A DNA stretch of 64,000 nucleotides from an uncultured bacterium (GCA_964549305.1 CAZJVM010000003.1:31380-95379); one strand, 5' to 3'; shown: positions 32,472 to 56,728, counted from the first letter of the stretch. Made by a program: numbers and translations. The notes: a model not told the origin generated them from the sequence alone.

Positions 32472-33233
32472 TTAAAACATCACAATCGGCGGAAGTGTCT
32501 GAAGAATCATCGCTTCAGGGGGAATGCCGATTTTAATTCCGGCAACGAATCCCTTATCCTCCACGAGGTTGAATTCAACCCATTGTCCGCGCGCAACAAG
32601 CATTGCCTCGCGGGCCTTTTTGTTAAGTTTTTTTCCTTTGGTACTCTCGATTATCTTTTTGTACGTCCTGATAAAAGTATTTCCTGTTTCCATTAAAAAA
32701 GGCATATCCTTCTCCGCCAAGTCAAAGGCAATTCCGAGTCCTCCTCCCCTCTGCTTGTTGCGGTAGATGGAATGGAAGAGATTTTTCAGATTTTCATTGA
32801 GGGCGCCGTAATTTTTTCCGTATTTTTTGCATAGCGCTTTCATCGATTTGATAAAAATTTCCCTTTCATCTTCTGATTCGAGAAATGGCGAAAGGTCGGT
32901 ATGCCCCATTAAGCGGCATTGTTTTTTTCTTTTCAACATTCTCAGACTAAGGGTGCCTACGGGCACTTCAGGATTAAAGGTGTGCGAGCATATTTCAAAT
33001 ACCCTAACGGAAGTTTTTTCATTATAACGGGGAATTACCATTGAAAAGCGCGTATCACTGATTGCCATCTTCTCGAGGACTTTTCCTCTTAATGTGTTTA
33101 CCTCCATAAAACCGTCTGCGATATCCCAACTTTTTGAATCGAATTTGGCTCTATCGTCCGCTTTTTTAAATGTGCTGATTGCCTTTTTCTTCGCCTTCTC
33201 CATAAACTTGTCAAAATCGGATATTGCAGTCAT
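32472..33233 (-). CDS. Oxygen-dependent coproporphyrinogen III oxidase (HemF family)-like.
   Basis: IYRNKQRGGGLGIAFDL and ARGQWVEFNLVEDKGFVAGIKIG...LPP align with HemF YLKHRNEQRGIGGLFFDDL and [24 protein letters not shown]...MPPL. It is about 45 aa shorter than E. coli HemF. Confidence 0.55.
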   Translation of the reverse strand: MTAISDFDKFMEKAKKKAISTFKKADDRAKFDSKSWDIADGFMEVNTLRGKVLEKMAISDTRFSMVIPRYNEKTSVRVFEICSHTFNPEVPVGTLSLRMLKRKKQCRLMGHTDLSPFLESEDEREIFIKSMKALCKKYGKNYGALNENLKNLFHSIYRNKQRGGGLGIAFDLAEKDMPFLMETGNTFIRTYKKIIESTKGKKLNKKAREAMLVARGQWVEFNLVEDKGFVAGIKIGIPPEAMILQTLPPIVMF

Positions 33234-39975: not shown

Positions 39976-41913
39976 TTATTTCTTTTCCTTAAAGCTGTAT
40001 GATATGAGGCGTGCCGAGTTTGCCACTACCACGATTGACCCGATATTGTGGACAATCGCGCCTCCGATTGGTCCGAGAAGCCCTGAAGAGGCGAAATAAA
40101 GTGCAAAAGCGTTTATAATTATTGATATGGAAAGACTCTGCTTGATTATCGTTATGGTCTTCTTGCCGATTGCTATTCCTTCGGGTACCTTTGAAATATC
40201 GTCGGAGACAAGGGCAATGTCCGCAGATTCTATTGCTATGTCGGTGCCTCCCGCGCCCATTGCTATTCCCACATCGGCAAGGGCAAGGGCAGGAGCGTCG
40301 TTTATGCCGTCGCCAATCATTGCCACTATTTCCCCTGAATCCTTGATTTTAGATATATGTGCCACTTTGTCCTCTGGAAGCAATTCCGCCTCCACTGAGT
40401 CAAAGCCTATTCCGTGGGCAACCTTTTGTGCCGATTCCCTGCGGTCTCCCGTGAGCATAACAATATTTTTTGCGCCGAGCTTTTTAAGGTCTTCTATGGT
40501 TTCCGAAACTTCCTCCCTTATAGTGTCGGAAATGCTTATCATCCCCGCGAATTCCCCGTTTAAAGCCACGCTTATTACCGTATTTCCTTCTTTTGATTTA
40601 TCCCCGATATAGGAAAGCGATTCACTGCTCATATCAATATTTTCTTCCCTGAACATAAGCGGATTTCCGATTACGATTTTATCTCCTCCGCTTATGACTT
40701 TTACGCCCTTGCCTACGAGGGTTTCGCTCTCATCGGGTGCCATAATAATCATTCCCTTCTCATCCGCCTTTGCAAGCACCGCCTTTGCAAGTGAATGAGT
40801 GGAATGCTTTTCCGCCATCGCTGCAAGCTCGAGCACAGCGTCTTCGCTGAATCTTCCCACGGATTTCACTTCGCTCACCATCGCTTCGCCGAGAGTGACA
40901 GTTCCCGTTTTATCAAAAACAAAAGATGTGAGTTTTCCCATAGATTCAAGAATTGCGCCGCCTTTAATGAGTATCCCCTTTCTTGCGGCATTTCCGATTC
41001 CCGCAACTACTGCCGTGGGAGTGGCAATTACAAGGGCGCAGGGACAGGCAACGACAAGTATGGAAACAGCCCTTATGATTTCTCCCGTTACGAGATAAAC
41101 AGCGGCGCTGAAAAGAAGTATGGCAGGAGTAAACCATCCCGAGAAACGGTCCGCAATTCTCTCGATAGGCGGTTTTTCCGCCTGCGCTTCCTTTACCATA
41201 TCGATTATCTTCGCGAGCGTTGTCTGTCCTCCTACTCTTGTCGCTCTTATTATGAGAACTCCGTTTTTGTTGATGGTGCCGCTGAAAACTTCACCACCTT
41301 CCTCTTTGTTTACCGGAAGGGGTTCTCCCGTGATTGCCGATTCGTCCACTTCTGCAAACCCTCTCTCAACAATGCCGTCAACGGGTATTTTTCCACCCGC
41401 TTTTGCAATGATGAGTTCTCCTCTTCTTACATCTTCCACCGGAACAGTCATTTCCCTTCCGGTCCTGATTACCGTTGCGAAATCGGGAGTGATTTCGATG
41501 AGTTTTCTTATGGCATCTCCGGTTTTTGCAATCGTAAGATCTTCGAGAAGTTCGCCTACATTCATCATTAGTACAACTATTGCGCCGGCCATATATTCTC
41601 CCACCCATATTGAAGCGAAGAGGGCGAGGGTGACCAAAAGTTCGGCATTAAGCCGTTTATCTTCGAAGATTGCCCTGATTGAATTTTTTATGATTGGAAA
41701 TCCGCTCAACACGCAGGCGGCAAGAGAAAGCTTTATTCCGGGCGCGGTTTTGTCTCCGCCTAAGAAAAAGGATAAAGCGATAAGAACAATTGAAAGGACG
41801 GGGGAGAAGAAGGGCTCAATCCGTTCGGTTTCCATAAGCCATGAATTTTCACCGCACTTCTCCCGCTCTTTTATGTTGCTTTCAATGACTGCTTCTCTGC
41901 TAATGTCGTGCAT
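39976..41913 (-). CDS. P1B-type heavy-metal translocating ATPase with no fused N-terminal metal-binding domain.
   Basis: TM6 CPCALVIATP, DKTGTVT phosphorylation site, GDGINDAP hinge, TGEP actuator motif. Confidence 0.85.
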   Translation of the reverse strand: MHDISREAVIESNIKEREKCGENSWLMETERIEPFFSPVLSIVLIALSFFLGGDKTAPGIKLSLAACVLSGFPIIKNSIRAIFEDKRLNAELLVTLALFASIWVGEYMAGAIVVLMMNVGELLEDLTIAKTGDAIRKLIEITPDFATVIRTGREMTVPVEDVRRGELIIAKAGGKIPVDGIVERGFAEVDESAITGEPLPVNKEEGGEVFSGTINKNGVLIIRATRVGGQTTLAKIIDMVKEAQAEKPPIERIADRFSGWFTPAILLFSAAVYLVTGEIIRAVSILVVACPCALVIATPTAVVAGIGNAARKGILIKGGAILESMGKLTSFVFDKTGTVTLGEAMVSEVKSVGRFSEDAVLELAAMAEKHSTHSLAKAVLAKADEKGMIIMAPDESETLVGKGVKVISGGDKIVIGNPLMFREENIDMSSESLSYIGDKSKEGNTVISVALNGEFAGMISISDTIREEVSETIEDLKKLGAKNIVMLTGDRRESAQKVAHGIGFDSVEAELLPEDKVAHISKIKDSGEIVAMIGDGINDAPALALADVGIAMGAGGTDIAIESADIALVSDDISKVPEGIAIGKKTITIIKQSLSISIIINAFALYFASSGLLGPIGGAIVHNIGSIVVVANSARLISYSFKEKK

Positions 41914-41922
41914 TCTAATTCC

Positions 41923-42594
41923 CTATTTCCACGAGAAATCAAGTTTAAGAAAGCTTCCAAGGAAGATGAATATGGTCATTATTGCCGCAGTCAATGCTTC
42001 GCCTGCAAATATCAACCCAAAGAGAAAGATTGCTGCCAAAAGTTCGGGCAAAATCTTTTTTTTCAGGATTCCTTCAAAAATCGCGTTTTTAAGCAGAGGG
42101 AAAAGCCCCATCACCGTAATTACGATTAAAAATCCTTCATCAAGATTATCATTCATCGGTACTGTCTGATTTATAAGCAAAAGGACGCTCATAAAGATAA
42201 GCGCAAACCAATCCTGCAGAGGGTTGTTGAATATTCTGTGGACAAGAGTGTTTTCATCGGAACTGTGCTCGTGATGGTGTGCGTGGTGAACTTTGTGGGA
42301 GTGTTCGTGCACGTGATGATATGCCCTTGATTCAAAACGGCTCTCTTTGTGGCTATGGTCAGAATGAAAATGCTCGTCTAAGGTGTCGTGGTTGTGGTCG
42401 TGTCCGGTGAATGATTCTTCATCATTGTGGTTATGTTCGTCATGGCGGTCGTGTTCATCGTTATGTTCGTGGTGGTTGTGCCCTTCGTGTCCGTGACTGT
42501 GCTCTTCACCCGAACCGTGAGAATGGGAAGATTTCTTAACCTTTTGTCCCGATGAGGTTTTCTTGAAGATATCGTCTCTGTTTATATCGTGCAT
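41923..42594 (-). CDS. His-rich metal-binding membrane protein, homologous to the N-terminal TM helices of the adjacent P1B ATPase.
   Basis: Residues 20-120 are very rich in H/E/D (HSHGSGEEHSHGHEGHNHHEHNDEHDRHDEHNH...). The C-terminal roughly 90 aa (FPLLKNAIFEGILKKKILPELLAAIFLFGLIFAGEALTAAIMTIFIFLG) align with the ATPase N-terminus (FPIIKNSIRAIFEDKRLNAELLVTLALFASIWVGEYMAGAIVVLMM). The 3' end overlaps the ATPase start by 11 nt. Confidence 0.6.
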   Translation of the reverse strand: MHDINRDDIFKKTSSGQKVKKSSHSHGSGEEHSHGHEGHNHHEHNDEHDRHDEHNHNDEESFTGHDHNHDTLDEHFHSDHSHKESRFESRAYHHVHEHSHKVHHAHHHEHSSDENTLVHRIFNNPLQDWFALIFMSVLLLINQTVPMNDNLDEGFLIVITVMGLFPLLKNAIFEGILKKKILPELLAAIFLFGLIFAGEALTAAIMTIFIFLGSFLKLDFSWK

Positions 42595-42630: not shown

Positions 42631-43782
42631 TCAGGCAGTTGCACTGCCGGGTTTTTGTGTTTTCTTTTTTGCTTTCTTTGCAGGTTGTTTAGCTTTTTCC
42701 TCCATCTGTTTCGCATAATCGAGAACCTGCTGAAACTTTCCTTTTGAAAGTTCTGCATCCTCAAAGGGAGTTCTTCTCATTCTGAATCCGAGAGTAAGCT
42801 CGCTTGCAAGGCGTACATCTTCCTCTGTGACTTCCTTTCTTCCGTCGTAGGCGGCTTTTGTCTTGGCGCCTCTCGTTATGATAATATCAGGCCTGTGCCC
42901 GTCAACGTCAAGCTCAATGCACATACGGGCGATGATACGCAGAAAATATTTTGAAATTTCCACTTTTTCAAGATTCTTTTTTGCCTGAGCTATCTTTTTG
43001 GTTATTTCTTTGTTCTGCTTATCGTATCTTGATTTGAAAAGAATCGGGTCCTCTTCGAATTCGCGGATTCGTTTTGCGATGAGCATTCTTGAATTTATGT
43101 CGGAAAGCCCTTTCACTTCAACGTGGAAAGCGAGGCGGTCATGAAGCTGGGGGCGAAGCTCGCCTTCTTCGGGATTCATCGTGCCGGCAAGAATGAAGTT
43201 TGCCGGATGGGAAAGTGAAACTCCCTCGCGCTCAACGATATTTACTCCCATTGCCGCTGAATCGAGAAGCACATCCATTATGTGGTCGTCAAGAAGGTTG
43301 ATGTTGTCAATATAAAGAATACCGCGGTTCGCTTCCGCGAGAATTCCCGTCTCAAGGGCTTTGATTCCTTCCTTTATTGCGCGCTCGATGTTAAGGGTGC
43401 CAACGACTCTGTCTTCTGTTGCGCCTACGGGGAGTTCCGCTATGTGCATTTTTTGTTTGACGCCATTGAGCTTTCCGCCCTTATCGACAGTTTCCCTGCA
43501 TATGGAGCACATCTTGGCGGTTTCATTGGGATTGCAGTGAAAACGGCAGTCTTTGACTGCGGCAATTTCCGGCAGTACATCTGAAAGACCTCTTACGGCA
43601 ACGGTTTTTCCCGTGCCTCTTTCACCTCTTATTAGTACTCCTCCTATCTGAGGATTTATGGCATTTAGCAGAAGCGCCATCTTCATCTTTTCCTGTCCCA
43701 CTATTGCCGAGAAGGGGAAATTGGTTCTTGCCGAGGAAAAAGCGCCGGTAGTTGATTCCTTCTTTTTCTTTTTATCCTTCAT
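42631..43782 (-). CDS. Class I chelatase AAA+ subunit (ChlI/BchI-like), copy 2.
   Basis: [13 protein letters not shown], Walker [56 protein letters not shown]. Confidence 0.8.
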
Positions 43783-43801
43783 TTATAATCTCCGTAAAAA
43801 T

Positions 43802-45847
43802 TTATCTTACAGTTTGAGTTCCCTGAATTTCAACCTGCTCAAAAGCCATTTTCTTTTCAAGAGTTATGAGTGAGCCGAGACTCTGATAATTTAACTGGTC
43901 AATTCGGTAGTATTTTGCCGACAAGGAGTCCGCTATGTCCTTTGCAAAACCGTAGGAGAAGTTGATGAAGCTCATCTTCTTCGTTACTTCCGTATCGATT
44001 ACCACTGAAAATACGCCTTCGGAATATACCATTTCGGCCAGTTTTTTTATCTCTTCCATGGGGTCCGATTCAGGTACTATGGGAACATTTGCTCTGCCGT
44101 CTGTAAGAAGCACGAGAAGGGGAATTATGGTAGGGTCTTTCTTCATTTCGTTTTTAATGAGATTCATTGCCTTCATAAGTCCGAGCCCAAGAGGAGTCTT
44201 TCCGCCTGTCGGCAGAGTGGTAAGCATTTTTTTTGCAAGCTCCACTCCGTTTGTGGGAGGCAGGATAACCTGCGCGTCGTTGCCCCTGAAGGCAACCATC
44301 GCAATCCTGTCCCTGCTCTGGTAGGCATCCATCAGAAGGGAAAAGACAGTTCCCTTGGCACATTCCATTCTGTCCATCGCGCCCATTGTGCCGCTTGCAT
44401 CCACAAGAAGCACAATCAGCGAAGACACCTTGCTCTGCCTTACTTTTTTGCGGATGTCCTCTTTGCGAATGAGAAGAGCGTGAGCGGATTCGTTCTTTTC
44501 CCTTCTTCTTTTTTGATGAGGCGCTGCCGAGCGCACCGTTGCGTCAAAAGCGATGTCATTGATGTCGTCTCTCGGGATGGAATGTTTGATATATCTTCCC
44601 TTGCGCCCCGATGTTATTGATTTTATCCTTTTCCCCGAACCGGAACGTGTTTTTCGGTCGGCTTTTTTTCTCGTCATCTGCTTCGGGATTTCAACGGCAG
44701 TGCCTATTCGGTGAATCTGTCCTTCGATGGCGTCCTCCTGCTCATCGGATGCTTCCATCTCGGTGTCCGAATCTGAGGGAGGCATAATATCCTCCATCTC
44801 CTGTGAAAGTTCATCTATAAGCTGGTCCATCATTTCATCGTTTGCAGTGTCTTCTCCGTAAGGCAGCGCTCGTATTCTGAAGGGAAGTATAAGCTCTCCC
44901 GCTTTTTTAATGTGGTTGTTGTTAAGCTCTGCTTCTTCGTCAAAGGCAGCAAGCGTCGCGGCGGTTTTTAAAATCATAGTTTCGGGTCTGTGCCCTTCCA
45001 CATCGAGTTCCTTGCACATCTTACACACGAGAAGCATCGTTCGGTCTGAGGTATCTATGTTTTTAAGCGCTTTCTGGGCACGTAAAATATGCTTTCTGAG
45101 AGCTGAACTCTTTCTTTCGTATTTTTTCCTGAATGCTTCGGGTCTGTTTTCGAAGTTGTTTCTGAGGTTCGTAATGTCAACCCTTTCCTCAACGCTTTCA
45201 AGGGCTTTCACTTCCACGTGAAGCGCTATTCTGTCAAGAAGCTGAGGACGAAGCTCGCCTTCTTCAGGATTCATTGTGCCGATGAGAATGAAGCGCGAAG
45301 GATGGGAGAAGGAGATACCCTCCCTTTCTACGGTGTTTACGCCCGATGCCGCAGCATCGAGAAGCACATCCACAACGTGGTCATCGAGGAGGTTGATTTC
45401 GTCTACATAAAGAATTCCCTGATTTGCCTCGGCGAGCATTCCCGGTTCGATTACTTTTTTGCCGAATTTTACCGCCTGCTCGATGTCGAGGCTTCCCACG
45501 AGACGGTCTTCCGTAAGCCCCAGTGGAAGGTCGATTACCCGAATCTGCCTTTTTGCTATTTTCAGTTTTTCCCCTTCCATTACATCCTTTTTGCAGTTTG
45601 GGCAAAGGTCGGTGAAAATATGCGGGTTGCAGTTGAAGGGGCATCCTTGCACAACATCCACCGGTGGCAGGATTTCGGCAAGAGCCCTTACGAATGTTGA
45701 TTTTCCCGTACCCTTTTCCCCCCTTATGAGGACGCCGCCTATTTTTGGGTTGATGGCATTGAGCGTGAGAGCAAGCTTCATATTTTCCTGTCCTACCATT
45801 GCGGTGAAAGGATAAAGAAGTCTTTTAGCCGTTATTCTTTTTCCCAT
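43802..45847 (-). CDS. Class I chelatase D subunit (ChlD/BchD-like: AAA+ plus acidic linker plus vWA/MIDAS).
   Basis: N-terminal ChlI-like AAA+ module with an intact Walker A (GEKGTGKS). Acidic/Pro linker ([32 protein letters not shown]). C-terminal vWA with [15 protein letters not shown]. Confidence 0.8.
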
Positions 45848-45848
45848 T

Positions 45849-46922
45849 TTATTTAAGTTCCATTCCTTTTTCTTTTGAAAGCCGGTTGAGAACTTCGTCT
45901 ATGAGATTTATGTGATGGTCTTCAGGTTTGAAAGGTATGCGCTTTACCCTGAAGGTAAGTATGAACTTTGCGGCGGTTTTTATGTCTGCCATTAAGAGCT
46001 TTTTCCTTCCCCTCATTGCGGCTAGAGTGAGCGCAGTTTTAATTACCATCGTGTCCGCCCTGTGCCCTTCCACTTCGAGCTCCTGGCAGAGACGGCAGAC
46101 AAGTTTCAGTGCCTTTTCGGAGAATGTTACCGAGCTGAAATTCTTTCCCGCCTTCATTATTTTTTTTCTCAAAGCATCGCTTTGTCTGGAAGACTTTTCA
46201 TTAAAGGCAGTCGGGTCGGATTCGAATTCGTTTCGAAGCAGAGTTATGTTGACGCGGTCATCTACATTCTTAAGTCCTTCCACATCCACGTGTATGGCAA
46301 TTCTGTCAAGAAGCTGTGGTCGAAGTTCGCCTTCTTCTGGATTCATTGTGCCGACAAGAATGAAGCGCGAAGGATGGACAAAGGATATGCCTTCCCTCTC
46401 TACGACATTTATTGCTGAAGTTGCCGCGTCGAGAAGCACATCGACGACGTGGTCGTCGAGAAGGTTTATTTCATCTACATATAAAATTCCGCCGTTCACT
46501 TCGGCAAGTATTCCCGGTTCAAGTTCACGTTTGCCTTCCTTTATTGCCCTTTCAATGTCGAGACTTCCTATGAGACGGTCTTCAGTAACTCCCAGGGGAA
46601 GGTCAACGACTTTCATCTTGCGTTTTTCAAGGGGAAGCTTTTCGCCTTTTTCAATTGCAGACGCGCAGGACGGACATAGCGCGGAATCAGATCCCGGTGA
46701 GCAGTTAAAGGGGCATCCTTTGACTACTGTTACCTCAGGAAGTATTTCAGCAAGCGCCCTTACCGCAGTGGACTTTCCCGTGCCCTTTTCCCCTCTGATT
46801 AAAACTCCGCCGATGGAAGGATTTGCGGCATTAAGCGTCAGGGCAAGTTTCATATCTTCCTGTCCTACGATTGAAACAAATGGGTAAAGTGTCCTTTTGA
46901 CCTTTTCTGTTTTTTTCTCCAT
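45849..46922 (-). CDS. Class I chelatase AAA+ subunit (ChlI/BchI-like), copy 1.
   Basis: [68 protein letters not shown]. Confidence 0.8.
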
Positions 46923-46937
46923 TGAGTAACTCCGTTT

Positions 46938-49900
46938 TTATTCTTCCTGTTCTTCTATCTCAGATTCTATCTCGAGATAGATTTTCTTCAGCTTTTCTAT
47001 TTCTTCTTCTGTAGCATCCCATATTCCCCTGTTGAATGCTTCCATAAGCCGGTTAAGCTGATGCTCCACAGCCCAGACATTCTCCTTCATCATGCTTTTT
47101 CTGACATTTTCATCGAAGAGGTATTTTTCCGCAACCTGGCTCCATACCCAGTTGTCAACAGATTCCGATGTTGCCGACCACCCGATGAGATGCTCGACTC
47201 TTTGGCTGATGTTTTTCACTCCCCTGTATCCGCTCGATACCTGTCCCTCTATCCATTTGGGGTTGAAGAGTTTTGTCTTCGCTTCGTATTCCAGCGTGGA
47301 TTTAATGTTCTTCGTGCTTATGCGGTCTTTTGTGGTGTCAGCAACGAGAATGGAAGGTTTCGATTTTTTCTGCTTACCGCTTTTCCTTTTTACCGTTTCA
47401 ACGGATTTTGCCATACCGCCGAGAAACTCGTAGTAGTGGTCAAGGTCTGCCATTCCGTATTCGTCACTGCTTCTTACCTGCGCAACCACATCCACCTTGT
47501 CGAGCACTTCCCTGAATGTGTCCGTATTCGATACGGCGTGAAATGAATCTCCGTAGATGTGGGACATCTTTGCAATATGAAGGTTTGCTATATCTTCACT
47601 TTCCTCCCAACCCGATGTTTCGATTAGCTGAGTGACATCGGTGCCGTAGTTTGATGCCGAGGGACCGAATATCCTTGCGCGGGAGAGGGCCTCTGCCTGA
47701 TTTTTCGGTACTCCTTTATCAGTGAGCACCTTGCGTATTTCGTCTGAATGTTTTTTAACGAAATTTTTATCGTGCGGTTCATCCAAATCAGCGACAATGT
47801 TAAAGGCACGGTCTATGATTTTCAGCAGCACGGGGAAGGTGTCCCTGAATATGCCGCATATTTCCACTGCCACATCGAGGCGGGGCCTTCCTAATTTTTC
47901 AGGAGGTATCGCTTTTACGCCGACGAATTCGCCCGTGCCCGCCCATTTCGGCTCGACTCCGAGATAGTGAAAAATCTCTGCGACGGTTTCGCCCTGAGTT
48001 TTCATCGTTTCGAAACCCCAGAGAATGACTCCCACCGTTTCGGGAAATTTTCCTTCGTTTTCTTCCTTGTATCCTTCTATTACCTGTTTTCCGATGAGAA
48101 GTCCCCTTTCAACTGCCGTGCGTGTGGGTATGAGGTCGGGATTGAACTGATAAATATTTCTTCCCGTGGGAATAACGGCAGGGCTTCGCACAGGGTCGCC
48201 TCCCACTCCCGGCTTTATGTATTTGCCGGAAAAAGTTGCGAGCAGACTGTCTATTTCAAAATTGTTCGAAAGGTTTGATGCAATCTCACCGGCAAAGCCC
48301 AGAGTCTTTTCGAACTCGTTTATCTGTTTGGAGTTGGGTTTATTACTGATAAACTTTTTAATTGTTTTTTTAACAGACGGTGATTTTGCTTTGAGATAGT
48401 CAAGAAGAATCTTTTTGGATTTTTCTTCCACTTCTTCAAGCACTATGCCCATAGGCCTTCCGTCGGGGCCGATTTTCGATGGTTTGTCGCGGGCATCTTC
48501 CCAGTCGATTCCTTCCGCCTCAGACACGAGTCTGTGAAGCGAAAGAGTTTCTCCTTTGTCAAATCTAACTATGCCCATTACATAATCGGCCAATTCTTCG
48601 TCCTTGAAGGAGTTGCCGAGGACGTGTACTCCCTTTGTCATAAGCGTGCCCTTCATTTCGGTAAGGGAGTCGTAAAGCTCGTTTATGTCAATATCCGCGG
48701 CTTCAATGTCGGCAAGGTTTTCTTCTTTTGCCATTTCAAGGATTTTTTCCTTTATCGCCTTTGCCTGAGCGGGGCTTTGTTCCTTCTGCTGGAAATAATT
48801 ATGTATTTCCGTTTCCATTTCAAAAAGCCGCCCGTAGAGATTTGAAACAATCATCGGAGGCGTCATATAATCCACAGTCGTCGCGTGGCTTCTTCTGCGC
48901 GCAATGGAAGATTCCGAGGGATTTGAGCAGGTGTAGTAATAGGCGTGAGGGATATCGCCTATAAGAAGGTCGGGATAGCAGTTTTCAGAAAGGGCAACCT
49001 GTTTTCCCGGTAAAAATTCCAATGTGCCGTGGGTGCCGAAATGAACGAGAAGGTCAGCCTGAAATTCCTTCTGAAGCCAGAGATAGTATGCAAGATACTG
49101 ATGATGAGGCGCTATTCCCGTATCGTGATAAGTCTTCGAAGGGTCTTCGAAATATCCCCTGGGCGGCTGAAATCCTAAAAATATCTTCCCAAAAGTAATT
49201 CCCGGTATGAGGACATCTTCATCGTCGGCGAGAATGTTTCCCGGAGATTCACCCCATTGCTCGATGATGTCCTTCCTGTTATGTTCGGGAATTTCGTTAA
49301 GCCATTCATTATAAGCGCTTACGGGCACCTTGAAGGCATTTTCCTTGATTTTTTGCAATCCTGTCCAGTTGCTCAGGTTCACGAGATTTTTCTTTACCAT
49401 AAGGCGGATGAACTCCTGACGTGTTTTCGGGTATCCCGAAACATCGTAACCCTCTTTTTTCATCCTGTCGAAAAGTCTTATCAAACTGTCGAAGGTGTCG
49501 AGGTTTCCCGCGTTTCCTATGTTGTCTTTTCCGGGAGGATAATTGAAAAGAACAAAAGCCACTTTCTTTTCACTGTTTTTAAGGTTTCTGAGCTTAACCC
49601 ATCTTGCCGTTCTTTCCACTGCCCTGTCCACCCGGTCTTCGATTGCCTGCATTACGCGGATGGTCTTCCCGTTTTCCGAAAGGTCCTTGTGACCTGATAT
49701 AAGGACGCCTTCAATCAGTCCGTCAAGCTCGGGAAGTATTGCCGTAATCGTTGTCTCAAGAGGCGCCATTCCTTCACTCTTTTCCCTCCACTCGTCAACG
49801 GTTGTGTATCCCATATTAAGATACTTCATAATCGGGACATTCAGTCTTGCGGCAAGATCTATGAATGCTTCGTAATCGCCGCCGAGCGGTCCTCCTTCGA

Positions 49901-50840
49901 TTCTGAAAAAGAGAAAGCTTATGATTGCTTCAACTATTGATTTGCCCTTTGACATAAACTGGCGTTCCATATTTTTCATATTTTCAGAACCTGATGTGAG
50001 GATTGTAATCGCGCCGAGTCCACGTTTCTCGAGAGCTTCTATGACTGCTTCAAGGTCGCCTGTGTCCTGTGTCTGATAGCGTTGAGTGTAGAAGAGGATA
50101 CCCACATAAGGATTTTTGACTGTTTTAGTGAGTTCGGTCTTTTGAATGAGTCCGGATTTTTTGTACCAGCTGAGATATTCATCGACGGTGGCGTATATTT
50201 TCTCCGATTTCGGATGATAAAGCGCGCCCTGCTTGATTTCTTCGGGAGGTTTGTATTCGACCTTGTATCCGTAATATTCGGAGAGGATGAACATAAAAAA
50301 TTGCGTAATGTTGTCTCTGCCTCCTGCAAAGAAATATTTCCATGCCCTGATGTAATTCGCGGCATCCTTCCATTTTCCGAATCTCATAACCTTGAGAATC
50401 GCGTCTGCCATTACAAGAAGTTTGCGCACTTCCATAGTGCTCTTGCTTGAATTCATTAATCCTCTGAGGATTCCAACGGCTTTTCCGAGCATTGAGTCGC
50501 TTTTTTCCATAGACATCTTGGGAAGCTGAAATTTTCCAATCTTCGTAAGGCTCATTCCGCGGGGCATTGAAGCGAGGACAATATAATTCTTTTTTTCGCT
50601 TTTGTGTTTTTCGAGTATGTCGAGAATTTCATCGTCAAACACCATATTGACGATTACCGTATCGGCTTCCTTTATGCTTTTTTCGATTTTTGAAAGATGT
50701 TCTTTCTGAAACTTCTGGTGGCGAAGGCAGAAGAAATAATCGAGTTTTACTTCACCCTTGAATTTCTTTTCAAGTTCATTTGATGCCTCGGCAAGAGACT
50801 TACTGAAGGTATAGTCTCCAATTATGGCAGTAAAATGCAT
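46938..50840 (-). CDS. Class I chelatase large subunit (CobN/ChlH family), 1300 aa.
   Basis: CobN/ChlH-family blocks throughout, including LLVHFGTHGTLEFLPGK, PNLYGRLFE and VKLRNLKNSEKKVAFVLFNYPPG. Confidence 0.85.
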   Translation of the reverse strand: MHFTAIIGDYTFSKSLAEASNELEKKFKGEVKLDYFFCLRHQKFQKEHLSKIEKSIKEADTVIVNMVFDDEILDILEKHKSEKKNYIVLASMPRGMSLTKIGKFQLPKMSMEKSDSMLGKAVGILRGLMNSSKSTMEVRKLLVMADAILKVMRFGKWKDAANYIRAWKYFFAGGRDNITQFFMFILSEYYGYKVEYKPPEEIKQGALYHPKSEKIYATVDEYLSWYKKSGLIQKTELTKTVKNPYVGILFYTQRYQTQDTGDLEAVIEALEKRGLGAITILTSGSENMKNMERQFMSKGKSIVEAIISFLFFRIEGGPLGGDYEAFIDLAARLNVPIMKYLNMGYTTVDEWREKSEGMAPLETTITAILPELDGLIEGVLISGHKDLSENGKTIRVMQAIEDRVDRAVERTARWVKLRNLKNSEKKVAFVLFNYPPGKDNIGNAGNLDTFDSLIRLFDRMKKEGYDVSGYPKTRQEFIRLMVKKNLVNLSNWTGLQKIKENAFKVPVSAYNEWLNEIPEHNRKDIIEQWGESPGNILADDEDVLIPGITFGKIFLGFQPPRGYFEDPSKTYHDTGIAPHHQYLAYYLWLQKEFQADLLVHFGTHGTLEFLPGKQVALSENCYPDLLIGDIPHAYYYTCSNPSESSIARRRSHATTVDYMTPPMIVSNLYGRLFEMETEIHNYFQQKEQSPAQAKAIKEKILEMAKEENLADIEAADIDINELYDSLTEMKGTLMTKGVHVLGNSFKDEELADYVMGIVRFDKGETLSLHRLVSEAEGIDWEDARDKPSKIGPDGRPMGIVLEEVEEKSKKILLDYLKAKSPSVKKTIKKFISNKPNSKQINEFEKTLGFAGEIASNLSNNFEIDSLLATFSGKYIKPGVGGDPVRSPAVIPTGRNIYQFNPDLIPTRTAVERGLLIGKQVIEGYKEENEGKFPETVGVILWGFETMKTQGETVAEIFHYLGVEPKWAGTGEFVGVKAIPPEKLGRPRLDVAVEICGIFRDTFPVLLKIIDRAFNIVADLDEPHDKNFVKKHSDEIRKVLTDKGVPKNQAEALSRARIFGPSASNYGTDVTQLIETSGWEESEDIANLHIAKMSHIYGDSFHAVSNTDTFREVLDKVDVVAQVRSSDEYGMADLDHYYEFLGGMAKSVETVKRKSGKQKKSKPSILVADTTKDRISTKNIKSTLEYEAKTKLFNPKWIEGQVSSGYRGVKNISQRVEHLIGWSATSESVDNWVWSQVAEKYLFDENVRKSMMKENVWAVEHQLNRLMEAFNRGIWDATEEEIEKLKKIYLEIESEIEEQEE

Positions 50841-50858
50841 ATTAATCTCCTTACGGGG

Positions 50859-51308
50859 TTAAATGCTCAGTTTTTCAAGAATTTTCCTGACTTTATCAAG
50901 TGAGTTTCCAAGCTCGCTTACTTCTTCATCTGTGAGGCGGCTAAAAATATTGAGAAGTTCTTCACGGCGCTTCATCATAAATTCCATCCTCATTTCCACG
51001 CCTTTCTCTGTAAGATTCACCTTTACCACTCTGCGGTCATTTTTATCTCTTTCTCTTTCTACGATGCCTTCCTTAACCAGTTTGTCGATTGCTTCTGTCA
51101 TGCTTGGAAGGGTTACGCCCGCGTTTTTAGCCAATTCACCCATTGTGAAGGGGCGGGATTCGGTAAAGGCGGAAAGGGCTTTGATTTTGGAGAGACTTAG
51201 GTCATAGCTTAATTTTACGCCGTTTAGAGAAACAACCTTTTTTGTAAACTCAATAAAGAAATCTTTTACCTTGAGGATATTTTCTTCAAGATTTTTCGCT
51301 CTCTGCAT
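50859..51308 (-). CDS. MarR-family transcriptional regulator.
   Basis: Winged HTH: MGELAKNAGVTLPSMTEAIDKLVKEGIVERERDKNDRRVVKVNLTEKG. It is the first gene of the chelatase operon. Confidence 0.8.
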   Translation of the reverse strand: MQRAKNLEENILKVKDFFIEFTKKVVSLNGVKLSYDLSLSKIKALSAFTESRPFTMGELAKNAGVTLPSMTEAIDKLVKEGIVERERDKNDRRVVKVNLTEKGVEMRMEFMMKRREELLNIFSRLTDEEVSELGNSLDKVRKILEKLSI

Positions 51309-56026: not shown

Positions 56027-56728
56027 TCATTTATTTTTCAGAAGCAGGGTTATTTCTCCCTTCAGGTTGTCTAAAGCGCCTGAGAGGAGTAAAGACTGTA
56101 CGGTGTCCGTAACTACTTCCTCGTGAATTTTTGTCAACTCACGACAAATACAAATTTCTCTATTACCTGCAATGTTGGAAATTTCTTCAATAAGCCGTTT
56201 CACTCTTTTCGGTGATTCAAATATAATTACGGTTTCTTTGCGGGAGGCCAAATCCATAAGCACCTTTTCTCTTTTTCCTTTTTTTCGTGGCAGAAATCCT
56301 TCAAAGTAAAACCTCGACGTATCAAATCCCGAAACGGAAAGAGCGGTTATGGGCGCCGATATGCCTCCTATTGGGGAAACCTTGATTTCTTCCTTTATGG
56401 CATCGATTATGAGGGATGTGCCCGGGTCTGAAATTCCGGGCATTCCCGCCTCGGAAACAAGAGCTACATTCTTTCCCGATTTTAATTCTTCGATAATCTT
56501 TTTACCCTTATATCTGCTATTGGCGCTGTAATAACTGGTGAGGCGTTTTTTTATTTTGTAGCGGTTTAACAGCTTTAGCGTTTTTCGTGTATCCTCCGCC
56601 GCGATAATGTCGCAGGTCCTGAGGGTTTTAATCGCTCTTATGGTAATGTCTTCGAGATTTCCGATGGGCGTGGAAACTATATAAAGAGTTCCTGCCGATG
56701 GATTTACGACACTGTTTCCGCCGTTCAT
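56027..56728 (-). CDS. rsmI: 16S rRNA (cytidine1402-2'-O)-methyltransferase.
   Basis: Tetrapyrrole-methylase fold: LYIVSTPIGNLEDITIRAIKTL..IAAEDTR, EAGMPGISDPG. Confidence 0.85.
   Translation of the reverse strand: MNGGNSVVNPSAGTLYIVSTPIGNLEDITIRAIKTLRTCDIIAAEDTRKTLKLLNRYKIKKRLTSYYSANSRYKGKKIIEELKSGKNVALVSEAGMPGISDPGTSLIIDAIKEEIKVSPIGGISAPITALSVSGFDTSRFYFEGFLPRKKGKREKVLMDLASRKETVIIFESPKRVKRLIEEISNIAGNREICICRELTKIHEEVVTDTVQSLLLSGALDNLKGEITLLLKNK

What the first reader, a model, noticed from the sequence alone, without database searches (positions are those of the whole stretch)
41913..42594. His-rich membrane protein is a partial duplicate of the ATPase N-terminus: a split-off metal-binding domain plus the first TM helices.
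The 223-aa ORF is an extreme His/Asp/Glu-rich segment (H-x-H and HEH repeats over about 100 aa) followed by 2-3 TM helices. Those helices align residue-for-residue with TM-A/TM-B of the downstream ATPase (FPLLKNAIFEGILKKKILPELLAAIFLFGLIFAGEALTAAIMTIFIFLG against FPIIKNSIRAIFEDKRLNAELLVTLALFASIWVGEYMAGAIVVLMM). The ATPase itself has no N-terminal metal-binding domain. This looks like an ancestral fused MBD-ATPase whose N-terminal module was duplicated and is now encoded separately, or else a degraded earlier copy. The 11-nt overlap with the ATPase start suggests translational coupling. It may serve as a membrane-tethered metallochaperone or sink.
Basis: seen in the sequence. Interest (0 to 1): 0.6.

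Follow-up and report, generated by a model that had tools for sequence, protein, structure and literature searches.

The report
Pump-derived histidine-rich partner of a metal pump
The 223-residue gene is a conserved, unnamed small membrane protein: a histidine-rich metal-binding head on a copy of the first four membrane helices of the neighbouring metal pump. It almost always sits directly upstream of that pump, so it most likely acts as the pump's detachable metal-binding subunit, probably for nickel or cobalt.

Summary
The ORF is real: window 41923-42594, minus strand, 223 aa. It has an N-terminal MHD motif, a head of about 95 aa that is 33% His, and four TM helices. These helices are homologous to MA, MB, M1 and M2 of the downstream P1B-ATPase (BLASTP E 2e-6; shuffle z 10.5; profile-profile E 4e-13).

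It is not a pseudogene, a frameshift or an assembly artefact. About 80 sequence clusters exist, all 270 aa or shorter, and all end at the same point in M2 (...GSF.L.FSW). dN/dS is about 0.15-0.19. In 52 of 53 assessable metagenome loci, an ATPase of this clade has the small gene directly upstream. The one exception is a fused ATPase that carries the small protein's head in frame and has no small gene.

The fused forms sit inside the ATPase clade, so they look derived. The claimed 11-nt overlap is wrong: there is a 9-nt spacer after a TAG stop.

Both proteins start with MHD, which resembles the Met1-His2 Ni/Co sites of HypA and NikM/CbiM. The recurrent upstream neighbours are MarR, a CbiM/Q/O importer and a class I chelatase.

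Best reading: a trans-acting, membrane-docked metal-binding subunit of a Ni/Co-type pump. It has no Pfam family, and I found no description in the literature.

The parts
41923..42594 (-). Small His-rich membrane protein, 223 aa plus TAG stop. Member of an unnamed family that partners the MHD-clade P1B-ATPases.
   Evidence: ORF. Orthologues at 58-63% identity with the same synteny. About 80 clusters at 90% identity, all 270 aa or shorter, none with a Pfam domain. dN/dS 0.15-0.19.
42586..42594 (-). N-terminal Met1-His2-Asp3 (MHD) motif of the small protein.
   Evidence: 60 of 63 full-length family members start with MHD. It resembles the HypA MHE motif and the NikM/CbiM Met1-His2 Ni/Co sites. 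Metal binding is inferred, not tested.
42250..42534 (-). His/Asp/Glu-rich cytoplasmic head, residues 21-115. Predicted disordered.
   Evidence: 31 of 95 residues are His and H+D+E make up 57%. pLDDT is about 45-55. Length varies across the family.
42265..42327 (-). Conserved ordered His array next to the membrane, residues 90-110 (RAYHHVHEHSHKVHHAHHHEH).
   Evidence: H94, H96, H98, H100, H104, H106, H108 and H110 are invariant across 59 sequences. This is position-specific conservation, not just composition.
41947..42225 (-). Four-helix TM module, residues 124-216, paralogous to MA, MB (with the G-x-x-P kink and K/R-rich MB'), M1 and M2 of P1B-ATPases.
   Evidence: hhalign E 4e-13 against ATPase residues 30-123. 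Family profile matches ZntA 4umv residues 133-215, E 0.0035. AF2 pLDDT is 84-96. The top Foldseek PDB hits are 7qbz and 4umw, rmsd 2.1 and 1.7 A, probability 1.00.
41926..41958 (-). Family-specific C-terminal motif GSFLKLDFSWK. Every family member ends here, inside or just after M2.
   Evidence: G213, S214, F220 and W222 are invariant. All members end FSW plus 0-6 residues.
41914..41922 (-). 9-nt spacer (GGAATTAGA) between the TAG of the small gene and the ATG of the ATPase. The two ORFs are in the same frame here.
   Evidence: Across 60 loci the spacers are 3, 6, 7, 4, -1, 9, 16, 130 and 168 nt, in mixed frames.
39976..41913 (-). P1B-type ATPase, 645 aa, with no HMA domain. Member of the 'MHD clade': N-terminal MHD, M4 ACPCALVIATP, M5 ..IN.., M6 GAIxHNIGS.
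   Evidence: Pfam E1-E2_ATPase and Hydrolase. TIGR01525 scores 592 bits. Clade N-termini. Signature.
41545..41826 (-). MA-MB-M1-M2 of the ATPase (residues 30-123), the region paralogous to the small protein.
42631..43782 (-). ChlI-like AAA+ chelatase subunit, second copy, directly upstream of the small gene (36-nt gap).
   Evidence: Pfam Mg_chelatase and AAA_lid_2. NCBIfam.
43802..45847 (-). ChlD-like chelatase subunit (AAA+ plus VWA).
45849..46922 (-). ChlI-like chelatase subunit.
46938..50840 (-). Large class I chelatase subunit (CobN/BchH family, 1300 aa).
   Evidence: PF02514. TIGR02025 BchH scores 1038 bits against a cut-off of 829.
50859..51308 (-). MarR-family regulator at the head of the same-strand gene string. 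A promoter-like site lies at 51382-51355.
   Evidence: ORF. Promoter scan. The same MarR type sits directly upstream of the small gene in 17 of 36 loci.

Best explanation
The 223-aa protein is the dedicated accessory subunit of the downstream P1B-type ATPase.

Origin (shown by homology). It arose from a partial duplication of the 5' part of the pump gene, covering the start motif MHD..R and helices MA, MB, M1 and M2. It has since been kept as a separate gene.

Mechanism (inferred).
- The four-helix module inserts with both ends in the cytoplasm and docks beside the pump. It keeps the MB kink and the basic MB' 'platform' that marks the metal-entry side in P1B-ATPases.
- The cytoplasmic head has three parts: the N-terminal Met1-His2-Asp3, a disordered His/Asp/Glu-rich stretch, and an ordered HxHxHxH...HxHxHxH array right at the membrane. 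It captures a divalent metal, most likely Ni(II) and/or Co(II).
- The head then hands the metal to the pump's entry site or reports its level. It would act in trans as the N-terminal metal-binding domain that this pump lacks.
- The two genes are co-expressed from a tightly coupled pair within a MarR-headed operon. In this organism the operon also encodes a class I (CobN/BchH-ChlI-ChlD) chelatase.

What rests on what. The shown steps are homology, conservation, obligate adjacency, and the existence of fused forms in which the head is attached directly to the pump. The inferred steps are physical docking, the metal's identity, and transfer versus regulation.
For: 1. Homology to the pump's MA-M2.
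- BLASTP E 2e-6 and shuffle z 10.5.
- hhalign probability 97.9%, E 4e-13, 91 columns.
- ZntA 4umv residues 133-215 in register.
- The AF2 TM module (pLDDT 84-96) superposes on 7qbz and 4umw at 2.1 and 1.7 A, ahead of all other PDB chains.
- The family TM HMM scores the partner clade at a mean of 38.7 bits, against 17-25 for the neighbouring ATPase group (P0104-P0122) and 4-11 for distant ATPases.

2. It is a real gene under selection.
- An exhaustive HMM search of 1.84 billion representatives finds 10 clusters at E<=1e-10, all 130-253 aa.
- A profile search finds about 80 clusters at 90% identity.
- 60 of 63 full-length members start with MHD, and all end FSW plus 0-6 residues.
- dN/dS is 0.15 in the TM part and 0.19 in the head.

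3. Obligate partnership.
- Every MHD-clade ATPase locus fetched with enough upstream sequence has the small gene directly upstream: 52 of 53 in the metagenome sample. Other ATPases have none.
- The spacer is usually -1 to 9 nt.

4. Rosetta-stone fusions.
- P0087/L072 and P0091 carry a small-protein-type head (MHDVDRNSIL.KDW..YG plus His-rich) fused just before MA of the pump. They have no small gene upstream.
- Their heads score 86-98 against the small proteins of sister loci and 23-29 against ATPase N-termini.

5. Ni/Co indications.
- MHD on both partners resembles HypA MHE (PMC7055735) and the NikM/CbiM Met1-His2 site (PMC3945884).
- CbiM(MHISEG)-x-CbiQ-CbiO lies directly upstream in 9 of 36 loci and upstream of the fused form. 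A chelatase subunit is upstream in 8 of 36 and MarR in 17 of 36.
- A weakly RcnA-like His-rich membrane protein lies downstream in 11 of 27 loci.

6. Precedent. PacL proteins are small membrane proteins encoded upstream of P1B-ATPases and needed for their function (PMC9374683, PMC13460109).
Against: - No direct evidence of a physical complex, of metal binding or of metal identity. Everything rests on sequence, synteny and predicted structure.
- The Foldseek E-values are weak (0.15 and 0.46) because the module is short. AF2 may also have learned the P1B fold.
- The pump's transmembrane signature (CPC / N in M5 / HNIGS in M6) matches no characterised subclass, so its substrate is open. NCBIfam would name it a Cd/Zn-type pump.
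- A Ni/Co importer and an exporter in one operon is unusual. This leaves the transport direction or purpose unclear.
- The His-rich head varies greatly in length, and the ordered His array is lost in the subclade that gave the fusions. Its precise chemistry may therefore not be critical.
- The NJ tree has no support values.
Confidence: 0.6

Rival explanations
1. A PacL-like scaffold or stability chaperone. The four-helix module binds the pump and is needed for its insertion, stability or clustering. The His-rich head is an optional buffer, not a transfer site.
For: PacL1/2 are required for CtpC/CtpG accumulation, and their metal-binding motif is needed only at high metal levels. The head here is highly variable and partly degenerate in some lineages. 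The TM module is the better conserved part (dN/dS 0.15 against 0.19).
Against: In the natural fusions the TM module is discarded and the head is kept. That points to the head as the indispensable part. The ordered His array and MHD are invariant in most of the family.
Confidence: 0.2
2. A membrane-tethered metal relay or store serving other partners. It would take Ni/Co from the ECF importer (CbiM/NikM-QO) or buffer it for the class I chelatase, with the pump acting only as an overflow valve.
For: The pair recurs next to CbiM-x-Q-O (9 of 36 loci) and chelatase subunits (8 of 36 loci). His-rich storage proteins are well known for Ni (own knowledge).
Against: The importer and the chelatase are each present in only a minority of loci, whereas the ATPase is always present. 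The TM module derives from the pump, and the fusions join the head to the pump, not to the importer or the chelatase.
Confidence: 0.12
3. A pseudogene remnant of a tandem duplication, or a frameshift or assembly artefact of one longer ATPase gene.
For: In the window the two ORFs happen to be in the same frame, 9 nt apart. A Nanopore-derived relative (L007) does carry frameshifts.
Against: The same stop position and C-terminal motif appear in about 80 clusters from independent assemblies. Spacers fall in all three frames, and dN/dS is 0.15-0.19. The downstream ATPase has its own complete MA-M2 and start motif. No 12-TM fusion of about 870 aa was found among the 120 nearest ATPase relatives listed, and every family member found is 270 aa or shorter.
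Confidence: 0.02
4. A negative regulator or decoy. As a pump-like fragment it would occupy the pump's dimer or chaperone interface and hold the pump inactive until metal binds the His-rich head.
For: N- and C-terminal metal-binding domains of P1B-ATPases are increasingly seen as regulatory or autoinhibitory (title of PMC11970713; statement in PMC13460109). The fragment keeps the MB' platform.
Against: There is no specific evidence. The tight translational coupling and universal co-occurrence fit any kind of subunit.
Confidence: 0.06

Closest known systems
PacL1/2/3 (DUF1490) of Mycobacterium tuberculosis and PacL-like DUF6110 proteins, partners of the P1B-ATPases CtpC, CtpG and CtpV (PMC9374683, PMC13460109)
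   Same: A small membrane protein encoded directly upstream of, and in an operon with, a P1B-ATPase. It has a cytoplasmic region with a His-containing metal-binding motif and is proposed as a chaperone or scaffold.
   Different: Not homologous: no Pfam hit even at E<=1. PacL has one TM helix, Glu/Ala repeats and a C-terminal motif. This protein has an N-terminal head and four TM helices that are a paralogue of the pump's own MA-M2. PacL binds the pump's MBD, whereas this pump has none.
N-terminal metal-binding extensions of P1B-ATPases (HMA domains, His-rich N-termini) and the MA/MB 'platform' of CopA, ZntA and sCoaT (PDB 3rfu, 4umv/4umw, 7qbz; PMC8880997)
   Same: The same position relative to MA and the same helices. 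MB has the same kink followed by an amphipathic basic MB'. Fused relatives (P0087, P0091) show the head working in cis.
   Different: Here the head sits on a separate polypeptide that carries a second copy of MA-M2 and stops in M2. It has no A, P or N domains, no CPC motif and no ferredoxin-like HMA fold.
Soluble metallochaperones split from or paired with P1B pumps: CopZ/Atx1, and E. coli CopA(Z) made by programmed frameshifting (own knowledge; cited in papers listed)
   Same: The pump's metal-binding module is supplied as a separate protein encoded at or next to the pump gene.
   Different: Those are soluble ferredoxin-fold CxxC proteins for Cu(I). This one has no Cys, is rich in His, is an integral membrane protein and has its own gene. 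A read-through or frameshift product is not conserved.
N-terminal Met1-His2 Ni/Co sites: the HypA MHE motif (PMC7055735) and NikM/CbiM (PMC3945884)
   Same: Invariant Met-His at the very N-terminus, followed by an acidic residue. The motif occurs in a Ni/Co gene neighbourhood, and the adjacent CbiM starts MHISEG.
   Different: There is no homology beyond the tripeptide, and coordination has not been tested. Here the motif is on both the pump and its partner.

Membership tests
P1B-type (heavy-metal) P-type ATPase (small protein as a member) | P-domain with the DKTGT phosphorylation site, N-domain, and A-domain with TGE | tested here: not met
   The protein ends at residue 223 inside or just after M2. 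There are no E1-E2_ATPase or Hydrolase Pfam hits. UniRef and JGI names such as 'heavy metal translocating P-type ATPase' for relatives are misleading.
P1B-type (heavy-metal) P-type ATPase (small protein as a member) | P1B-specific helices MA and MB (kinked, with MB' platform), followed by M1 and M2 | tested here: met
   hhalign E 4e-13. ZntA alignment in register. Foldseek to 7qbz and 4umw, rmsd 2.1 and 1.7 A.
P1B-type (heavy-metal) P-type ATPase (small protein as a member) | Transmembrane metal site (CPC/SPC in M4 plus M5/M6 ligands) | tested here: not met
   M3-M6 are absent and the protein has no Cys.
PacL (DUF1490 / DUF6110) P-ATPase-associated chaperone-like proteins | [quoted passage not shown] | tested here: not met
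   No Pfam family at E<=1 apart from a chance 0.14 hit. The protein has four TM helices and an N-terminal head. Definition taken from PMC13460109.
PacL (DUF1490 / DUF6110) P-ATPase-associated chaperone-like proteins | Encoded directly upstream of, and always associated with, a P1B-ATPase | tested here: met
   52 of 53 assessable loci. Spacer mostly -1 to 9 nt.
PacL (DUF1490 / DUF6110) P-ATPase-associated chaperone-like proteins | Required for the pump's stability and clustering; binds the pump | not testable with these tools
   Needs genetics and biochemistry.
HMA / CopZ-type metallochaperone or metal-binding domain (PF00403) | Ferredoxin-like beta-alpha-beta-beta-alpha-beta fold with a CxxC motif | tested here: not met
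   No PF00403 hit. The protein has zero Cys and the head is predicted disordered.
N-terminal Met-His Ni/Co site (HypA MHE, NikM/CbiM type) | Unprocessed Met1 followed by His2, with an acidic or small third residue, invariant in the family | tested here: met
   MHD in 60 of 63 small proteins. Positions 1-3 are conserved at 80-90% or more in 88 ATPases.
N-terminal Met-His Ni/Co site (HypA MHE, NikM/CbiM type) | Ni(II)/Co(II) coordinated by the free amine, the His2 amide and the imidazole | not testable with these tools
   Needs spectroscopy or ITC on protein with a native N-terminus.
P1B-2 (Zn/Cd/Pb) ATPase (downstream pump) | CPC in M4, Lys in M5, Asp (DxG) in M6 (feature list from own knowledge) | tested here: not met
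   CPC is present. My own alignment puts Asn at the M5 Lys position and His-Asn at the M6 Ala-Asp position. Clade consensus is ..IN.. and GAIxHNIGS. Even so, the TIGR01512 subfamily model is passed.
P1B-4 (Co/Zn/broad) ATPase (downstream pump) | SPC in M4 and HEGxT in M6 (PMC8880997) | tested here: not met
   M4 is CPC. M6 reads HNIGS, which keeps the His but has Asn where Glu is expected.
P1B-1 (Cu+) ATPase (downstream pump) | CPC in M4, YN in M5, MxxSS in M6 (feature list from own knowledge) | tested here: not met
   CPC is present, and the M5 Asn aligns with the Asn of AfCopA 'IYN'. However, M6 lacks MxxSS and there is no HMA domain.

The most novel reading that the evidence does not exclude
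A previously unrecognised type of P-type ATPase accessory subunit, made from a duplicated copy of the pump's own first four helices. It would pack against the pump as a pseudo-dimer partner and carry the pump's metal-sensing or donating head in trans. Together with its pump it would define a new Ni/Co-handling P1B subclass, marked by MHD N-termini on both chains and by CPC / N / HN(I)GS in the membrane. This subclass would be wired into ECF Ni/Co import and class I tetrapyrrole chelatase operons in anaerobes. The Ni/Co part rests on weaker evidence than the subunit part.
Probability: 0.4. Interest if true: 0.8.

Novelty: new variant of a known kind. Interest (0 to 1): 0.66.

Why it matters
Accessory proteins of heavy-metal pumps are few: soluble CopZ-type chaperones and the recently described PacL scaffolds. 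How pumps without an N-terminal metal-binding domain acquire or sense their metal is still open.

This family gives a natural split and fused pair of architectures, which is a ready-made experiment on the role of N-terminal metal-binding regions and of the MA/MB platform. It also flags a large, misannotated pump clade, currently named 'cadmium-translocating', that probably handles Ni/Co. That clade sits next to NikM/CbiM importers and BchH/CobN-type chelatases in Schekmanbacteria and Thermodesulfobacteriota. This bears on metal supply for tetrapyrrole metalation and on nickel homeostasis in sulfate reducers and their relatives. A recent genomic survey of the Desulfobulbales found none of the known periplasmic Ni exporters there, apart from RcnA in cable bacteria (PMC11247825).

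Practically, gene callers truncate or miss this gene, for example 107 aa called instead of 211 aa in GCA_003695725.1.

Tried and rejected
- Pfam on the small protein gave nothing. NCBIfam gave only a weak ZntA hit, E 0.001.
- The first word-indexed protein search found only 3 proteins, and the genome-contig scan found only 3 loci. The family looked tiny until the profile searches and the ATPase-anchored metagenome scan.
- The exhaustive search would not accept locus-derived sequences.
- The first AF2 model, from 3 sequences, was unusable (pLDDT 46). It was repeated with 59 sequences.
- The PDB profile hit to ZnT7 (8j7t) comes from His-rich composition and was disregarded.
- Stop-codon read-through or frameshift fusion: the ORFs are in frame in the window, but across loci the spacers are in frame in 31 and out of frame in 29, so this was rejected as a conserved mechanism.
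- No riboswitch (NiCo or cobalamin) or other Rfam family was found in the operon or in 11 related loci.
- Recent gene conversion between the small gene and its own pump was rejected. The window's pump scores no better than foreign pumps against the family HMM (35.6 bits against a mean of 38.7).
- The idea that the small protein belongs to the chelatase was rejected, because most loci have no chelatase.
- Literature searches found no description of this family.
Full report
**What is at the coordinates.** On the minus strand, an ORF of 223 codons runs from the ATG at 42594 to a TAG at 41925-41923. A 9-nt spacer (GGAATTAGA) follows. The ATG of a 645-aa P-type ATPase then starts at 41913 (39976-41913). 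The two ORFs happen to be in the same frame but are separated by the stop.

Residues 21-115 of the small protein contain 31 His out of 95, and H+D+E make up 57%. There is no Cys. Hydropathy and AlphaFold2 give four helices (125-144, 149-178, 183-196, 200-215), not two or three.

**Is the similarity to the pump real?** Yes.
- BLASTP aligns residues 160-217 with ATPase residues 67-124: 36% identity, E 2e-6.
- A Smith-Waterman score of 86 compares with 30 +/- 5.3 for 5000 shuffles (none reach 86; z 10.5). It compares with 27-29 against the pump's M3-M4 and M5-M6, so this is not generic TM composition.
- With 61 family members against 85 pump N-termini, hhalign gives probability 97.9%, E 4e-13, over 91 columns. 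Small-protein residues 124-216 match pump residues 30-123, which is MA, MB, M1 and M2.
- The family profile also hits Shigella ZntA (4umv) residues 133-215 in register, E 0.0035.
- An AF2 model built on 59 sequences has pLDDT 84-96 in the TM module. Its two best PDB matches are the P1B-ATPases 7qbz and 4umw: 94 and 89 columns, rmsd 2.1 and 1.7 A, probability 1.00. Every other hit has rmsd above 4.5 A and probability of 0.33 or less. The Foldseek E-values are weak (0.15 and 0.46) because the module is short.

**Is it a gene, a relic or an artefact?** It is a gene.
- Two independent assemblies carry orthologues (63% and 58% identity, 222 and 211 aa) in the same gene order.
- More divergent copies precede the orthologous pump in other Candidatus Schekmanbacteria MAGs and in Deltaproteobacteria/Thermodesulfobacteriota MAGs.
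- HMMER against 1.84 billion cluster representatives finds 10 clusters at E<=1e-10, all 130-253 aa. The only ATPase hit is marginal, at E 6e-4.
- A profile search of the 5.8-billion-protein set finds about 80 clusters at 90% identity. All are 270 aa or shorter, and none has a Pfam domain.
- Sixty of 63 full-length members start with MHD. All end ...GSF(L/M)xL(N/D)FSW plus 0-6 residues, which is the same truncation point in M2.
- Eight His in an HxHxHxH...HxHxHxH array next to MA are invariant across 59 sequences.
- For 64 gene pairs with unsaturated dS, dN/dS is 0.15 in the TM part and 0.19 in the head.
- Databases call these proteins 'hypothetical' or, misleadingly, 'heavy metal translocating P-type ATPase'. 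One GenBank MAG has the gene truncated to 107 aa by the gene caller.

**Partnership with the pump.** The pump belongs to a large clade: more than 85 of the 120 nearest relatives, at 48-82% identity. Nearly all of these begin MHD(V/I)(A/S)R(D/E) and lack any HMA domain. I call this the MHD clade.

I used the pump's N-terminal 140 aa to fetch 80 metagenome loci and scanned them with the small-family HMM. Every locus with an MHD-clade pump and enough upstream DNA had the small gene directly upstream: 52 of 53. None of the 17 loci with other ATPases did. Spacers are 3, 6, 7, 4, -1 or 9 nt in most loci and 130-168 nt in a few. They fall in mixed frames, so read-through is not a conserved feature. 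The small-family TM HMM scores MHD-clade pumps at a mean of 38.7 bits, the neighbouring ATPase group (P0104-P0122) at 17-25 bits and distant ATPases at 4-11 bits. This fits an origin from this clade. The window's own pump scores no better than foreign ones, so the duplication is old and not homogenised.

**Fused forms.** The single exception among the 53 loci is L072 (identical to P0087/L009). This is a 679-aa pump beginning MHDVDRNSILRKDWDERARKYGPHPHKHSH...HEHYH, which runs straight into the pre-MA segment of the pump. A second fused pump, P0091 (698 aa), is similar. Neither has a small gene upstream.

In an NJ tree these two fall inside the clade, beside P0084 and P0093. The loci of those two pumps (L066, L067) do have small genes. 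The fused heads score 86-98 against those small proteins and only 23-29 against pump N-termini. The simplest reading is a secondary fusion: a deletion removed the small protein's four helices and the first 30 or so codons of the pump. It also serves as Rosetta-stone evidence that the head works on this pump, and that the TM module's job is to hold the head at the pump. The caveat is that the tree has no support values.

**Which metal?** This is inferred, not shown.
- The invariant Met1-His2-Asp3 on both partners recalls the HypA MHE nickel site (PMC7055735). It also recalls the Met1-His2 Ni/Co site of NikM/CbiM (PMC3945884).
- Among 36 loci with at least 900 nt upstream of the small gene, the preceding gene is a MarR regulator in 17. 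It is CbiO of a CbiM-x-CbiQ-CbiO ECF importer in 9 (CbiM starts MHISEG), a ChlI/ChlD chelatase subunit in 8, and something else in 2.
- The fused pump L072 also follows CbiQ-CbiO. There, CbiQ scores 144 bits against a cut-off of 111.8.
- A His-rich membrane protein with weak RcnA similarity follows the pump in 11 of 27 loci.
- The pump's membrane signature is conserved across the clade: M4 ACPCALVIATP, M5 ..IN.., M6 GAIxHNIGS. It fits none of three subclasses. The Zn/Cd type has K in M5 and D in M6. The Cu type has MxxSS in M6. The P1B-4 type has SPC plus HEGxT (PMC8880997). The M6 His is shared with P1B-4.
- NCBIfam would name it a cadmium-type pump.
- I found no riboswitch.

**The operon in the window.** All genes are on the minus strand:
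- MarR (50859-51308), with a promoter-like site at 51382-51355
- a 1300-aa CobN/BchH-type subunit (46938-50840), which passes the BchH equivalog cut-off at 1038 against 829 bits
- ChlI (45849-46922)
- ChlD (43802-45847)
- a second ChlI-like gene (42631-43782)
- the small gene (41923-42594)
- the pump (39976-41913)

The organism is most likely a Candidatus Schekmanbacteria bacterium: the best pump hits, at 82% and 70%, are from such MAGs.

**Mechanism proposed.** The small protein is a dedicated, co-translated subunit of the pump. Its four-helix module is a diverged copy of the pump's MA-M2 that keeps the G-x-x-P kink and the basic MB' helix. This module anchors and docks it at the pump. Its cytoplasmic head (Met1-His2-Asp3, a disordered His/Asp/Glu stretch and an ordered His array at the membrane surface) binds Ni/Co. 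The head then delivers the metal to the pump's entry site or reports its level, acting in trans as the metal-binding domain the pump lacks.

What is shown: homology, selection, obligate adjacency, and fusion of head to pump. What is inferred: physical docking, metal identity, and transfer versus regulation. Transport direction and purpose are unresolved, since co-occurrence with an importer is unusual.

**Comparison with known systems.** The closest functional analogue is the PacL family of mycobacteria. These are small membrane proteins encoded upstream of P1B-ATPases and needed for their stability and clustering, with an optional His-containing motif (PMC9374683, PMC13460109). This family is not homologous to PacL: there is no Pfam hit, it has four helices rather than one, its head is N-terminal, and its TM part derives from the pump itself. 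It is also unlike CopZ-type soluble chaperones, having no Cys and no HMA fold. I found no description of a standalone MA-MB-M1-M2 protein in the searchable literature. A genomic survey of nickel homeostasis in Desulfobulbales did not list this pump or its partner.

**Verdict.** It is wrong on 'degraded copy or artefact' and probably on the direction of the split and fusion. This is a new, conserved and so far unnamed accessory-protein family for a misannotated pump clade. I rate it a new variant of a known kind (P1B-ATPase partner proteins), with interest of about 0.66.

Noticed in passing
window 42631-51308 (minus strand): A MarR-headed operon encodes a class I chelatase in a non-phototroph. 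The large subunit passes the BchH (Mg-chelatase H) equivalog cut-off (1038 against 829 bits). It comes with two ChlI-like genes and one ChlD-like gene, whose best model is 'putative cobaltochelatase', below its cut-off. Its substrate and metal are unknown.
   Followed up: partly
window 39976-41913; P0004-P0101: The pump clade has a conserved and unusual membrane signature (M4 CPC, M5 Asn, M6 HN(I)GS) and an invariant MHD N-terminus. It is annotated as 'cadmium-translocating' but fits none of the P1B-1, P1B-2 or P1B-4 signatures.
   Followed up: partly
L054, L061, L066-L069, L073-L075; also L072: A CbiM(MHISEG)-unknown 205-238 aa gene-CbiQ-CbiO ECF-type Ni/Co importer lies directly upstream of the small gene-pump pair, apparently in the same operon. 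The unknown middle gene has no Pfam family and could be a NikK/NikL-type component. Having an importer and a P1B pump in one operon is odd.
   Followed up: partly
L011 9636-14678, L012 2011-14114, L014 9770-14316: In Thermodesulfobacteriota loci the pair is followed by two FDBR/RCCR-like (Fe_bilin_red, weak) genes, small ferredoxins and a B12-binding radical SAM gene. L012 also has two nitrogenase-like Oxidored_nitro genes and DUF169 upstream. This looks like an uncharacterised tetrapyrrole-modifying neighbourhood. Compare the remark on Schekmanbacteria sequences lying between FDBRs and RCCRs in PMC10151467.
   Followed up: no
L007 9381-10340, L011 9636-10595, L012 9637-10560; L005 3440-4198: A membrane protein of about 310 aa with a long His-rich loop follows the pump in 11 of 27 loci. 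It has no Pfam family and only weak similarity to the RcnA Ni/Co efflux model (E 6e-5). In Schekmanbacteria GWA2_38_11 a DsbD_2 protein with similarly weak RcnA similarity takes that place.
   Followed up: partly
L003 7349-7984 (GCA_003695725.1): The deposited gene calls split this gene into a 107-aa ORF plus a spurious 63-aa ORF on the opposite strand. The intact 211-aa ORF is present. The His-rich region seems to mislead gene callers, so the family is under-counted in protein databases.
   Followed up: yes
window 41120-42169 (+), 40795-41571 (+): Long ORFs on the opposite strand (349 and 258 aa) overlap the pump and the small gene. They look like shadow ORFs. I did not search them for families or homologues.
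   Followed up: no
window 41913-42594 and 60 related loci: The small gene and the pump are in the same frame in the window (681 nt between the ATGs, with TAG between them). Across loci, 31 of 60 spacers are in frame, somewhat more than the third expected by chance. However, the sequences are not independent, and 29 are out of frame.
   Followed up: partly
L007 6676-7600: In this MAG both the small gene and the start of the pump are broken by frameshifts. I suspect long-read sequencing errors (my guess from the isolate name MFD04716), and its close relatives are intact.
   Followed up: no
window 32472-33233 (-), 56027-56728 (-): Other tetrapyrrole genes occur in the window: a coproporphyrinogen III oxidase (HemF-type Pfam) homologue and a tetrapyrrole methylase (TP_methylase).
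   Followed up: no
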